From an uncultured Acidobacteriaceae bacterium (GTDB lineage: Bacteria; Acidobacteriota; Terriglobia; Terriglobales; Acidobacteriaceae): a DNA stretch of 64,000 nucleotides. The DNA lies in the NCBI GenBank assembly GCA_963828115.1, contig CAWHDN010000022.1:5592-69591 (forward strand), written 5' to 3'. Under the pieces are notes generated by a model. It had not been told where the DNA came from. It saw only the letters and a list, made by a program, of their open reading frames with translations, and did not search any database. Shown here piece by piece: positions 46,673 through 48,846 of this stretch (positions within the stretch are counted from its first letter, which is position 1; the number at the start of each line of letters is the position of its first letter). Position numbers and translations under genes: made by a program.

Positions 46673-47350
46673 ATGAGTTCTCAAGGCCAGCTGATGTCGC
46701 AAGCCCCACCCGCAAGATCCAATCCCGGCCTCTTCAAGCGCAACCCGCCCATCGCCGGTGAGGCTGAAGCCATCGAAGCCGCCAAGCGCGGAGATGCCGA
46801 TGCCTTCGCCAGGCTCTATAACCTGCACAAGCGCCGCGTATACACCCTCTGCCTGCGCATGTTGGGCAACGTCAGTGCCGCCGAGGATATGACCCAGAAC
46901 GCCTTCCTCCATCTCTTCCGCAAGATCGAGAGCTTCCGCGGCGAATCCGCCTTCTCCACCTGGCTGCACCGCCTCACCGTCAACCTCGTCCTCATGCAGT
47001 TGCGCAAGAAGGGCCTCAACCTCGTCTCCCTCGAAGAGACCATCAACCCAGAAGACGATGCCCCGCGCCGCGACTTCGGCAGCCGCGACCCCGTCCTCGC
47101 CGGTTCGGTCGACCGCGTCGCCTTGGAGCGCGCCGTCGCAGCCCTGCCCCCCGGATACCGCATGGTCTTCGTCCTGCACGACGTCGAGGGATACGAACAC
47201 AACGAGATCGCTACCATGCTCGACTGCTCCACAGGTAACAGCAAATCCCAACTGCACAAGGCCCGGCTCAAGCTCCGCGAACTGCTCCGCAACCCCAACC
47301 AGTTGCCCCAGTCGCCCCTGCCGTCCGGGCCCGAGGAGTCCGCCAAATGA
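46673..47350 (+). CDS. ECF RNA polymerase sigma factor
   Basis: GDADAFARLY, AEDMTQNAF, FRGESAFSTWLHRL, LHDVEGYEHNEIA...SKSQLHKAR. Confidence 0.92.
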   Translation: MSSQGQLMSQAPPARSNPGLFKRNPPIAGEAEAIEAAKRGDADAFARLYNLHKRRVYTLCLRMLGNVSAAEDMTQNAFLHLFRKIESFRGESAFSTWLHRLTVNLVLMQLRKKGLNLVSLEETINPEDDAPRRDFGSRDPVLAGSVDRVALERAVAALPPGYRMVFVLHDVEGYEHNEIATMLDCSTGNSKSQLHKARLKLRELLRNPNQLPQSPLPSGPEESAK

Positions 47351-47664
47351 CCCTCCCCCGCAACATCGACTTCGACTCCCTCAAGCCCGAGGAGTTTGAA
47401 CACATCCTCCCCGACCTCTTCGCCTCCGGCGACGGCAAGGTCAGCCAGGACCCGCGCCTCAAAAAGTTCCTCGCCGCCAACCCAGACTGCGCAGCCCTCG
47501 TTAGCGACCTCGAAGTCATCGCCGAAACAGCCCGCAGCCTCTTCGAGCCCGTCGCCGAACCAAGCGACCGCGTCTGGCAGAACATCCAGGCCAAGCTCCA
47601 GGAAGAATCCGCCCTCGCATCCATCGACGACGACTACATCGACCCATCCAAGCCACTCGACTAA
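47347..47664 (+). CDS. Small soluble acidic protein coupled to sigma gene, putative anti-sigma
   Basis: ATGA overlap; EFEHILPDL, FLAANPDCAALV (degenerate zinc-anti-sigma pattern), EPSDRVWQNI. Confidence 0.65.
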   Translation: MTLPRNIDFDSLKPEEFEHILPDLFASGDGKVSQDPRLKKFLAANPDCAALVSDLEVIAETARSLFEPVAEPSDRVWQNIQAKLQEESALASIDDDYIDPSKPLD

Positions 47665-47676
47665 TCTCCCGCGCGC

Positions 47677-47764
47677 CGTCATTCTGGCGAAGCCAGAATC
47701 TCCGTATTTCGTCGTTGTCTGTTCTCGCCTGTCATTCTGAGCGCAGCGAAGAATCCCCGCATTT
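47677..47764 (+). repeat. Two family A REPs
   Basis: cgtcattctggcgaagccagaatctccgtattt and tgtcattctgagcgcagcgaagaatccccgcattt. Confidence 0.85.
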
Positions 47765-47816
47765 GCTTTTGTCCCGGTTACAGCAAATCTACCCGTACAA
47801 CTTTCGATCAATCTTC

Positions 47817-47845
47817 TTGCAACCAATCCAGCTCAGGTGTACTCT
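47817..47845 (+). promoter_or_regulatory. Sigma70-type promoter of the aroK leader
   Basis: TTGCAA-17 nt-TACTCT, 10 nt before the leader ATG. Confidence 0.6.
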
Positions 47846-47855
47846 CACATTCAGG

Positions 47856-47954
47856 ATGAATACACGCTCGCTTCAGTACGGCTACTTTACCTATCCCTGC
47901 CCTTGGTGGCAGGGAGCGGGTCAGCCGGGCTTGCGTGCAGCTCTGTACCGATAA
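47856..47954 (+). CDS. Aromatic-residue-rich leader peptide (MNTRSLQYGYFTYPCPWWQGAGQPGLRAALYR)
   Basis: Six Tyr/Phe/Trp codons in an 11-codon stretch including tandem TGG TGG; lies between a promoter and a terminator upstream of shikimate kinase. Confidence 0.72.
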   Translation: MNTRSLQYGYFTYPCPWWQGAGQPGLRAALYR

Positions 47955-47992
47955 AACAAGATCGCCTTACAGAGCATCCACCAAATCCACTG

Positions 47993-48029
47993 AGCCGCGA
48001 CCCCCACAAAAGGTCGCGGCTTTCGTTTG
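47993..48029 (+). terminator. Attenuator terminator upstream of aroK
   Basis: Perfect 10-bp stem agccgcgacc/ggtcgcggct followed by ttcgttt, about 40 nt before the aroK ATG. Confidence 0.78.
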
Positions 48030-48059
48030 TCGCAAACACTGTTGCAACAAGGAGCCGTA

Positions 48060-48644
48060 ATGAACGCCCAACCCACCGCCGAGTCCGCCGCCGAACCTCA
48101 TACCATCGCGACCCAGCCCGCGCATCTACGCCGCCTTGTCCTCACCGGGTTCATGGGTGCCGGCAAGACCACCGTCGGCCGCCTGCTCGCCGCCCGACTC
48201 AACTGGGACTTCCTCGACCTCGACGCCTACATCGAGTCGCGATCTGGCCTCTCCGTCCCCGCCATCTTCTCCATCCACGGCGAAGCCCATTTCCGCCAGC
48301 TTGAGTCCATGGCCCTGGCCTCAGCCCTCGGCCGCAACCGCCTGGTCCTCGCACTCGGCGGTGGAGCACCCGAGGTCCTCACCAACCGCCTCCTCCTTGA
48401 GCAGACCCCTGCCACCTCCACCATCTTCCTCGACGCGCCCTTCTCCGCACTCTTCGACCGCTGTATGATGCAGGCCCTCAATCCTGGTACTACCGACCGG
48501 CCGATACTAGCCGACCCCGCCACCGCCGAGGCCCGCTTCCTCGTCCGTCAGCCTATCTACCGTCTCCTGGCCCGCCTCACACTCGATACCGCCAGCCTCA
48601 CCCCCGAACAGACCGTCGCCGCCATTCTCGCCCGCCTCACCTAA
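48060..48644 (+). CDS. aroK: Shikimate kinase
   Basis: LTGFMGAGKTTVG, DLDAYIE, GEAHFRQLE, ALGGG, RPIL, RQPIY; RBS aaggag. Confidence 0.93.
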   Translation: MNAQPTAESAAEPHTIATQPAHLRRLVLTGFMGAGKTTVGRLLAARLNWDFLDLDAYIESRSGLSVPAIFSIHGEAHFRQLESMALASALGRNRLVLALGGGAPEVLTNRLLLEQTPATSTIFLDAPFSALFDRCMMQALNPGTTDRPILADPATAEARFLVRQPIYRLLARLTLDTASLTPEQTVAAILARLT

Positions 48645-48654
48645 CCACACACCC

Positions 48655-48846
48655 CGTCATCCCGACCGGCCGCCAAACTCCGTCATCCCGACCGGAGCAA
48701 CGGACGGTCTCATCGTCCGTTGCGCAGCGGAGGGACCCCCGCATTTCGCTCTTGTCTGTTCTTAACCCATATTTGCCTTTTCCTTTGTTTGTTCTTAATC
48801 GGTTTCATCGGTGTCAATCGGTGTTAGGCTTTTGCCCTTGCCGTTG
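48655..48846 (+). repeat. Composite repeat: family A variant REP, TTGYYT hexamer tract and ATCGGTG repeats
   Basis: Same order of parts as 63616..63762. Confidence 0.75.

What the first reader, a model, noticed from the sequence alone, without database searches (positions are those of the whole stretch)
47817..48062. Candidate attenuator sensing Tyr, Phe and Trp together upstream of shikimate kinase
Seen, in order: promoter TTGCAA-17-TACTCT; a 32-codon ORF MNTRSLQYGYFTYPCPWWQGAGQPGLRAALYR with Y,Y,F,Y,W,W within 11 codons; hairpin tccctgcc/ggcaggga (47894-47915) over the Trp codons; hairpin gctctgta/tacagagc (47940-47975) over the stop; a 10-bp terminator (47993-48021) with U-rich tail; then aroK with its own SD. 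gcgggtcag (47916-24) can pair with ctgagccgc (47990-98, one mismatch), overlapping the terminator 5' arm, so an antiterminator is available while the ribosome is held upstream. Known: trpL and pheL attenuators sense one amino acid, and shikimate kinase acts in the common trunk to chorismate (E. coli controls aroL via TyrR/TrpR). Inference: ribosome-mediated attenuation integrating all three end products at a trunk enzyme. I know of no description of this for aroK in this lineage.
Basis: partly seen in the sequence, partly recalled or inferred. Interest (0 to 1): 0.85.

Follow-up and report, generated by a model that had tools for sequence, protein, structure and literature searches.

The report
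Aromatic leader-peptide attenuator upstream of aroK
A tiny 32-codon gene rich in Tyr, Phe and Trp codons, followed by two mutually exclusive RNA hairpins, sits in front of the shikimate kinase gene. It is very probably a classic ribosome-sensing switch that turns aromatic amino-acid synthesis up when these amino acids run short, in soil Acidobacteria where I found no published description of such switches.

Summary
73 of 81 aroK loci in Granulicella/Edaphobacter/Tunturiibacter-like genomes carry a 25-39-codon leader ORF. All 73 have a strong terminator, and 70 of 73 carry Phe, Tyr and Trp codons within 11 codons. It is stable only while a ribosome sits on the aromatic codons.

New here:
- The promoter leaves about 3 nt before the ATG and no Shine-Dalgarno, so translation is probably leaderless-like.
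- The same genome has a homologous copy before a trpB-trpA-chorismate mutase-DAHP synthase-tyrA operon.
- A covariance model finds the RNA in 38 of 38 same-genus genomes, usually both copies.
- In other genera and families of the class it precedes DAHP synthase, chorismate mutase or trpBA.

The aroK leader is therefore one member of a lineage-wide aromatic leader family that is not in Rfam. The closest known case is Corynebacterium glutamicum aroR-aroF. Phe/Tyr sensing fits the geometry well, whereas Trp sensing is less certain. No direct expression data settle it. This scan noted the DAHP-synthase version earlier on other DNA (e1-4057426).

The parts
47817..47845 (+). Promoter: -35 TTGCAA (47817-47822), 17-nt spacer, -10 TACTCT (47840-47845)
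   Evidence: TTGCAA-like -35, a 17-18 nt spacer and a TAnnnT -10 are present in 66 of 69 orthologous leaders. The -10 ends 10-11 nt before the ATG. The transcription start was not mapped.
47856..47954 (+). Leader-peptide ORF, 32 codons plus stop. No Shine-Dalgarno, and the inferred 5' UTR is about 3 nt.
   Evidence: A homologous ORF is found in 73 of 81 aroK loci. In 29 diverse homologues, frames open from an in-frame ATG average 5.2 aromatic codons of 14, against 1.2 in the remaining frames.
47877..47909 (+). Regulatory codon cluster: Tyr8, Tyr10, Phe11, Tyr13, Trp17, Trp18
   Evidence: F, Y and W are all present within 11 codons in 70 of 73 leaders. The rare codons TTT and TAT are enriched: 62% each in leaders against 27% and 32% in the genome.
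47894..47915 (+). Region 1:2 hairpin (anti-antiterminator) over codons 13-20. Its 3' arm is also part of the antiterminator 5' strand.
   Evidence: Covariation support is limited.
47906..47929 (+). Region 2: 5' strand of the antiterminator (core GCGG-G-UCAG at 47916-47924)
   Evidence: Forms in folds with a ribosome on codons 8-16. Conserved, with compensatory changes.
47940..47975 (+). Central hairpin B, which holds the leader stop codon (47952-47954) and is enclosed by the antiterminator
   Evidence: It is 93% paired, and 5 of 7 pairs show changes on both sides.
47986..48007 (+). Region 3: 3' strand of the antiterminator, overlapping the terminator 5' arm
   Evidence: The CCGC core is invariant in 74 of 74 sequences, as expected for a strand that must pair with two partners.
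47992..48031 (+). Intrinsic terminator: 11-bp stem 47992-48002 with 48012-48022, 9-nt loop, U-rich tail to about 48031
   Evidence: -20.3 kcal/mol. An equivalent stem is present in 73 of 73 leaders. It is 99.6% paired with 4 covarying pairs.
48050..48644 (+). aroK (shikimate kinase) with its own AGGAG (48050-48054). ATG at 48060, stop at 48642-48644.
   Evidence: Pfam SKI E 2.8e-36. It is the only shikimate kinase found in the 89.5%-complete genome.

Best explanation
This is a ribosome-mediated (leader-peptide) transcription attenuator of aroK.

Transcription starts a few bases before the leader ATG (inferred). A ribosome translates the 32-codon leader close behind RNA polymerase (inferred).

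When charged tRNA-Tyr or tRNA-Phe is scarce, and possibly tRNA-Trp, the ribosome stalls on codons 8-17. There it covers region 1 and leaves region 2 (47906-47929) free. Region 2 pairs with region 3 (47986-48007) around hairpin B. This sequesters the terminator's 5' arm, so polymerase reads on into aroK.

When aromatic aminoacyl-tRNAs are plentiful, the ribosome runs on over region 2 to the stop codon inside hairpin B. Behind it, region 1 can re-pair with region 2. The terminator (47992-48022) then forms and most transcripts end near 48025-48031.

Shown here: the anatomy, its conservation and covariation, and how antiterminator stability depends on ribosome position. Inferred: the transcription start, translation of the leader, and the response to starvation.

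The element is one copy of a homologous leader family. In this genome a second copy controls a trpB-trpA-chorismate mutase-DAHP synthase-tyrA operon. In related genera the family controls DAHP synthase and chorismate mutase.
For: Anatomy.

Conservation:
- 73 of 81 aroK loci have the leader ORF.
- All 73 have a terminator of -17 to -24 kcal/mol.
- The promoter is conserved in 66 of 69.

Translation signal:
- ATG-open frames average 5.2 aromatic codons of 14, against 1.2 in the remaining frames.
- Indels between the ATG and the last aromatic codon in alignment A1 look like multiples of three by eye; this was not counted.
- Downstream of the last aromatic codon the reading frame and the stop position differ between clades while the RNA sequence stays conserved.
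- The codon at position 17 exchanges only among Trp, Phe and Tyr in the window's clade, although it lies in a hairpin loop.

Alternative helices:
- Antiterminator plus hairpin B: 92.5% paired, 10 pairs changed on both sides, 0 of 500 shuffles as high; sliding one strand gives 28-41% paired.
- Terminator: 99.6% paired.

Position dependence. With the terminator 3' arm not yet made, pairing of its 5' arm is worth:
- -9 to -16 kcal/mol with the A site on codons 8-16 of this leader;
- about -3.7 once the ribosome is past Trp18 or absent;
- across 73 leaders, a mean of -7.9 on the aromatic cluster against -3.2 after it.

Cognate targets: homologues found with model R1 precede aroK, trpBA, chorismate mutase or DAHP synthase in every verified case.

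A classical His leader before hisI-hisG in the same genome shows the mechanism type is in use here.

Weak hint from RNA libraries: peat metatranscriptome contigs cover 47880-48026. Contigs of two studies stop at 48026 and 48029. One contig bridges 47974-48406.
Against: - There are no 5' or 3' end maps, no proof of leader translation and no starvation data.
- The metatranscriptome material is assembled contigs. These cannot show ends, strand or level.
- At equilibrium the full terminator always wins, so the model depends on co-transcriptional kinetics that were not modelled.
- The folding model assumes a ribosome footprint. Trp17 supports antitermination only if the 3' boundary is at most 11 nt from the A site, and Trp18 hardly at all.
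- With no ribosome, some orthologues still form the antiterminator (for example L102 at -12.7), so basal termination without translation is not uniform.
- Covariation for the 1:2 hairpin is weak.
- Many compared sequences are close relatives. Counts of compensatory cells therefore overstate the number of independent events.
Confidence: 0.82

Rival explanations
1. Same attenuator, but it senses only Phe and Tyr. The Trp codons sit too close to region 2, so a ribosome stalled there blocks the antiterminator, and Trp limitation would give no induction or even more termination.
For: - Window model: Trp17 gives -3.8 and Trp18 gives -3.7 kcal/mol at the standard footprint. That equals the no-ribosome baseline, against -11 to -15 on Tyr and Phe codons.
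- Across leaders the stabilisation is already falling at the last aromatic codon (-5.3).
- Some DAHP-synthase-type homologues lack Trp codons altogether (L123, L124, L131, L132, L135).
- In C. glutamicum, aroR responds to Phe but not Tyr despite having codons for both (PMC11802643), so the presence of a codon does not prove sensing.
Against: - A Trp codon is kept in 71 of 73 aroK-type leaders.
- In the window's clade, position 17 varies only among Trp, Phe and Tyr although it lies in a hairpin loop. That argues for selection on the codon's identity.
- With a footprint boundary of at most 11 nt, Trp17 gives -7.5 kcal/mol.
- The paralogue controls trpBA, for which Trp sensing would make sense.
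Confidence: 0.3
2. The hairpins are simply the terminator of the upstream sigma/anti-sigma operon, or an independent small RNA gene. On this reading the small ORF is a chance frame that is not translated.
For: - The terminator lies 330 nt after the anti-sigma gene, with REP-like repeats in between.
- No Shine-Dalgarno precedes the ORF.
- There are no data on translation.
Against: - The element has its own conserved promoter placed 10-11 nt before the ATG.
- The sigma/anti-sigma pair was detected upstream in only about 42 of 72 aroK loci that carry the leader.
- The homologous RNA also occurs before trpBA, chorismate mutase and DAHP synthase in other genomic contexts.
- The ORF is open and aromatic-rich in one frame only.
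Confidence: 0.04
3. The leader is a ligand-, tRNA- or protein-binding attenuator (T-box, TRAP-like or riboswitch), or an arrest peptide that senses free amino acid as TnaC does, rather than a sensor of charged tRNA through codon reading.
For: The RNA is highly structured and conserved. The peptide after the aromatic cluster also looks conserved within clades.
Against: - No Rfam family, T-box included, matches the window at E up to 10, or the homologues at E up to 0.1.
- Conservation downstream of the last aromatic codon is independent of reading frame, so it is at the RNA level and not the peptide level.
- Stalling induced by a free amino acid would raise a biosynthetic gene when the product is abundant, which is the wrong logic.
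- The aromatic codons are the only peptide feature shared by all clades.
Confidence: 0.04

Closest known systems
Corynebacterium glutamicum aroR leader peptide upstream of aroF (DAHP synthase). Neshat et al. 2014 as summarised in PMC11802643; also PMC4046766 and PMC7356990.
   Same: Both are leader peptides with mixed aromatic codons (Phe-Tyr-Phe in aroR) that attenuate a common-trunk enzyme of aromatic synthesis. In the wider Acidobacteria family, most homologues of the present RNA also precede DAHP synthase.
   Different: - Different phylum, and no sequence relationship was tested.
- Here the target in the window is shikimate kinase.
- Trp codons are included.
- The same RNA is duplicated before two or more aromatic transcription units in one genome.
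E. coli trpL-trpEDCBA and pheL-pheA attenuators (Rfam Trp_leader RF00513, Phe_leader RF01859)
   Same: Both have the four-region design: regulatory codons in region 1, then 1:2, 2:3 and 3:4 alternative helices, and an intrinsic terminator before a biosynthetic gene.
   Different: - Not homologous: no Rfam match.
- The E. coli leaders use a run of one amino acid, whereas this one mixes Tyr, Phe and Trp.
- The stop codon lies 14 codons after the last aromatic codon, inside an extra hairpin enclosed by the antiterminator.
- There is no Shine-Dalgarno.
E. coli aroL (regulated shikimate kinase II), repressed by TyrR and TrpR.
   Same: Shikimate kinase expression is tied to aromatic end-product supply.
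   Different: E. coli uses protein repressors that bind free amino acids, together with a second constitutive kinase. Here an RNA and ribosome device controls the only shikimate kinase found.
C. glutamicum ilvBNC leader, translated without a ribosome-binding site (Morbach et al. 2000, cited in PMC4046766)
   Same: A leader peptide that lacks a Shine-Dalgarno and sits at or near the transcript's 5' end.
   Different: It senses branched-chain amino acids. In the present case the leaderless start is inferred from promoter spacing only.

Membership tests
Leader-peptide (ribosome-mediated) transcription attenuators | Short ORF with a cluster of codons for the end-product amino acid(s) | tested here: met
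   6 aromatic codons in 11. Conserved in 73 of 81 loci and specific to one frame.
Leader-peptide (ribosome-mediated) transcription attenuators | Intrinsic terminator between the leader ORF and the regulated gene | tested here: met
   Stem 47992-48022, -20.3 kcal/mol, U-rich tail. Present in 73 of 73 leaders and 99.6% paired with covariation.
Leader-peptide (ribosome-mediated) transcription attenuators | Antiterminator helix mutually exclusive with the terminator | tested here: met
   47906-47929 pairs with 47986-48007. 92.5% paired, 10 pairs with changes on both sides, 0 of 500 shuffles as high.
Leader-peptide (ribosome-mediated) transcription attenuators | Region 1, holding the regulatory codons, pairs with region 2, so a stalled ribosome frees region 2 | tested here: inconclusive
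   The hairpin 47894-47915 exists, and a second 1:2 register is 84.6% paired across clades. Covariation for the window's own hairpin is weak. The ribosome-masking model behaves as expected.
Leader-peptide (ribosome-mediated) transcription attenuators | Regulated gene belongs to the cognate pathway | tested here: met
   aroK in the window. Homologues precede trpBA, chorismate mutase and DAHP synthase.
Leader-peptide (ribosome-mediated) transcription attenuators | Read-through rises when the cognate charged tRNA is limiting, and the leader is translated | not testable with these tools
   Only assembled metatranscriptome contigs were available.
Rfam Trp_leader / Phe_leader / other curated leader families | Match to the family covariance model | tested here: not met
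   No such match at E up to 10 in the window, or at E up to 0.1 in four homologous loci.
T-box leader | Match to the T-box model (specifier loop and T-box sequence) | tested here: not met
   No Rfam T-box hit.
C. glutamicum aroR-type leader | Sequence homology to aroR | not tested
The likeness is functional only.

The most novel reading that the evidence does not exclude
A single homologous, probably leaderless, mixed-codon leader RNA forms an aromatic attenuation regulon across the class that contains Acidobacteriaceae. It would have stood ancestrally before DAHP synthase and chorismate mutase. It was then duplicated before trpBA and, in at least two genera, before the sole shikimate kinase. 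One codon-reading device would therefore integrate Phe, Tyr and Trp supply at several steps of the pathway. This would be a new RNA family, absent from Rfam, in a phylum where I found no published leader-peptide attenuator.
Probability: 0.65. Interest if true: 0.55.

Novelty: new member of a known kind. Interest (0 to 1): 0.45.

Why it matters
- It gives a concrete, testable regulatory element for aromatic amino-acid synthesis in Acidobacteria. These are abundant soil bacteria whose gene regulation is almost unstudied. A survey of attenuators noted that almost none predicted in this phylum have an assigned function (PMC2965389).
- It shows shikimate kinase as a target of leader-peptide attenuation, for which I found no published case.
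- It provides an alignment and a covariance model that could seed a new RNA family covering aroK, trpBA, chorismate mutase and DAHP synthase leaders.
- It offers a natural case for asking how a mixed-codon leader weighs three amino acids.
- It also suggests leaderless translation of leader peptides outside Actinobacteria.

Tried and rejected
- The consensus promoter/terminator scan found nothing. Probably its rules exclude a 9-nt loop and a -10 with 3 of 6 matches.
- Equilibrium folds that include the whole terminator always gave the terminator, whatever the ribosome position (one search timed out). They were uninformative, so I replaced them with folds that lack the terminator's 3' arm.
- RNAalifold on the full 73-sequence MAFFT alignment recovered only the terminator, because the two clades are misaligned. 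I therefore derived helices per sequence and mapped them to columns.
- Rfam gave no relevant family.
- A look-up of earlier scan notes by sequence found nothing.
- Metatranscriptome contigs: the stretches without cover (47808-47851 in all four runs; 48028-48166 in X1) cannot be read as transcript boundaries. I use only the weak hint of contigs stopping at 48026 and 48029 in two studies.
- Model hits in families f12 and f4 (L200-L203), and the weak second hit in G008 (L165, L205), show no aromatic ORF and no aromatic gene downstream. They are probably terminator look-alikes.
- The genome-wide scan for other codon-run leaders gave mostly noise apart from the His leader.
- One of the 14 loci of the first look (L007, from genome G009, flagged unpublished) appears only.

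Full report
**1. The observation**

- TTGCAA (47817-47822), 17 nt, TACTCT (47840-47845);
- a 32-codon ORF from ATG 47856 to the stop at 47952-47954, with Tyr8, Tyr10, Phe11, Tyr13, Trp17 and Trp18;
- a hairpin at 47894-47915;
- a hairpin at 47940-47975 that contains the stop codon;
- an 11-bp terminator stem at 47992-48022 (-20.3 kcal/mol) with a U-rich tail;
- aroK (ATG 48060, AGGAG at 48050-48054), which is Pfam SKI at E 2.8e-36.

The leader folds much better than shuffles (z = -4.63). Aromatic codons make up 6.7% of long-ORF codons in this genome, against 6 of 11 here. The simple consensus scan reported no promoter or terminator, probably because of its limits on loop length and -10 matches. 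The stretch 47672-47777 just upstream is a REP-like repeat with 53 matches in the genome and is not part of the element.

**2. Conservation upstream of aroK**

The leader DNA is unique in the genome but is found in same-genus genomes. A scan of public genomes with the AroK protein gave 80 loci from Granulicella, Edaphobacter, Tunturiibacter and unnamed Acidobacteriaceae.
- Counting the window, 73 of 81 loci have a 25-39-codon ORF with an aromatic cluster ending in Tyr-Trp or Trp-Trp.
- All 73 have a terminator of -17 to -24 kcal/mol built on the same GCCGCG / CGCGGC core.
- 70 of 73 carry Phe, Tyr and Trp together within 11 codons.
- The sigma/anti-sigma pair that precedes the window's leader was detected upstream in only about 42 of the 72 other leader-bearing loci. 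The element therefore appears to travel with aroK rather than with that upstream pair.

**3. Evidence that the ORF is read**

- In 29 diverse homologues found with the covariance model, frames open from an in-frame ATG average 5.2 aromatic codons of 14. The remaining frames average 1.2.
- Indels between the ATG and the last aromatic codon look like multiples of three by eye in alignment A1; I did not count them.
- After the last aromatic codon the frame is free. One clade carries one extra base and stops at a UGA in the 5' arm of hairpin B, while another reads on to a UAA in its loop. The nucleotides stay conserved in both. The apparent conservation of the peptide tail is therefore at the RNA level, and the aromatic codons are the only shared coding feature.
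- In the window's clade, codon 17 lies in a hairpin loop, yet it varies only among Trp, Phe and Tyr.
- Leaders prefer the rare codons TTT and TAT, at 62% each against 27% and 32% genome-wide. RNA constraints and relatedness may contribute to this.

**4. Promoter and start of translation**

TTGCAA-like -35 and TAnnnT -10 elements with a 17-18 nt spacer are present in 66 of 69 leaders. The -10 ends 10 or 11 nt before the A of the ATG. A start about 7 nt downstream of the -10 would leave roughly 3 nt of 5' UTR, and no Shine-Dalgarno is present. I infer leaderless-like initiation. There is a precedent in the C. glutamicum ilvBNC leader, which is translated without a ribosome-binding site (Morbach 2000, cited in PMC4046766). 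The transcription start was not mapped.

**5. Alternative RNA structures**

With the whole terminator present, the terminator always wins at equilibrium. This is usual for attenuators and says nothing either way. I therefore folded each leader up to the terminator loop, so that the 3' arm was not yet made, with 28 nt masked by a ribosome at each codon. I then measured how much free energy is lost when the terminator's 5' arm is forbidden to pair.

Results for the window:
- Pairing is worth -9 to -16 kcal/mol with the A site on codons 8-16.
- It is about -3.7 once the ribosome is past Trp18, at the stop codon, or absent.

Over 73 leaders the mean is -7.9 on the aromatic cluster and -3.2 in the following codons, and 50 of 73 differ by at least 3 kcal/mol.

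On alignment A2 (74 sequences):
- Antiterminator plus hairpin B is 92.5% paired, has 10 pairs changed on both sides, and is exceeded by 0 of 500 shuffles. Sliding one strand drops pairing to 28-41%.
- The terminator is 99.6% paired with 4 covarying pairs. The CCGC that both helices share is invariant.
- The region 1:2 pairing is less well supported. The window's hairpin shows little covariation. A second register is 84.6% paired across clades.

Many of these sequences are close relatives, so the cell counts overstate the number of independent events.

**6. Which amino acids are sensed**

The Tyr and Phe codons (8-13) sit in the middle of the permissive zone whatever footprint is assumed. Trp17 supports the antiterminator (-7.5) only if the ribosome's 3' boundary is at most 11 nt from the A site. 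Trp18 hardly supports it at all. Conservation of Trp codons argues that they matter, but the geometry leaves Trp sensing open. In C. glutamicum, aroR has Phe and Tyr codons yet responds only to Phe (PMC11802643). This is a warning against reading function from codons alone.

**7. A family, not a one-off**

A genome-wide scan found a second leader at contig 10 (L105:2190-2356). It has a 23-codon ORF with Phe, Tyr and Trp codons and a near-identical terminator core. It stands before trpB, trpA, chorismate mutase, a DAHP synthase with a ferredoxin-like domain, and prephenate dehydrogenase.

A covariance model built from A2 (R1) finds exactly these two full-length sites in the genome. Its distribution elsewhere:
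- 38 of 38 same-genus genomes, 35 of them with two or more copies, and 13 of 13 genomes in a second genus.
- 82 of 132 family genomes, and 0 of 18 in the neighbouring family.
- 39 of 116 genera when the family is sampled evenly.
- Weaker full-length hits in two further families of the class.

Genes downstream of the hits I checked:

| Group | Gene(s) after the leader |
|---|---|
| Genera g1 and g55 | One copy before aroK and one before trpB (trpA follows where the fetched flank reached it) |
| Genera g104, g107 | trpB-trpA |
| Genera g16, g50 | DAHP synthase |
| Genus g85, families f6 and f8 | Chorismate mutase and/or DAHP synthase |

Because the DAHP-synthase and chorismate-mutase copies are the more widely spread, the aroK copy looks like a later duplication; no tree was built to test this. 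No Rfam family matches any version.

**8. Context**

aroK is the only shikimate kinase detected in this 89.5%-complete genome. A textbook His-codon leader with a terminator stands before hisI-hisG, so leader-peptide attenuation is in use in this organism.

Four peat metatranscriptome runs were available only as assembled contigs. These cover 47880-48026. Contigs from two studies stop at 48026 and 48029. One contig from a relative bridges 47974-48406. All this is compatible with both terminated and read-through transcripts but proves neither.

**9. Comparison with what is known**

The design is that of trpL and pheL. The nearest functional relative is C. glutamicum aroR-aroF, a Phe-Tyr-Phe leader before DAHP synthase. 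Full-text searches found no attenuator described for aroK or for Acidobacteria. A survey of attenuators noted that almost none predicted in Acidobacteria have a function assigned (PMC2965389). My census agrees with it and links it to the aroK and trpBA copies.

**10. Verdict**

The mechanism is classic. What is new is the RNA family, the shikimate kinase target, the lineage, the probable leaderless start and the multi-locus regulon. The open points are Trp sensing and all in vivo behaviour. I rate it a new member of a known kind, of moderate interest.

Noticed in passing
G000 contig 10, 55689-55854 (L105:2190-2356), outside the window: A paralogous aromatic leader: a 23-codon ORF with Phe, Tyr and Trp codons and the same terminator core. 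It precedes trpB, trpA, chorismate mutase, DAHP synthase (FXD type) and prephenate dehydrogenase, followed by a PALP/ACT enzyme.
   Followed up: yes
G000 contig 11, 26213-26296 (L020:1693-1776): A classical histidine leader: a 27-codon ORF with a run of five His codons and two more nearby, followed by a -21.6 kcal/mol terminator. It lies upstream of ORFs that look like hisI and hisG.
   Followed up: partly
window 47672-47777 and 48650-48700: REP-like intergenic repeats (GTCATTCTGAGCG... type) flank the aroK unit. The upstream stretch has 53 matches in the genome and very high summed depth in metatranscriptome contigs, because many copies and organisms share it.
   Followed up: partly
window 46673-47664: An ECF sigma factor (Sigma70_r2/r4) and an overlapping 105-aa ORF with no Pfam match, presumably the anti-sigma factor, lie upstream of the leader. 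The pair was detected there in only about 42 of 72 related aroK loci.
   Followed up: partly
G225:C1:731884-731981 (L168) and G226:C1:4291252-4291352 (L171): Third, partial hits of the leader model (positions 28-141 only), with no aromatic ORF and no aromatic gene downstream. They may be decayed copies or unrelated terminators.
   Followed up: partly
window 48041-48046: A second TTGCAA lies 14 nt before the aroK ATG, between the terminator and the Shine-Dalgarno. That is too close to the ATG to be a -35 for aroK, and it is probably chance.
   Followed up: no
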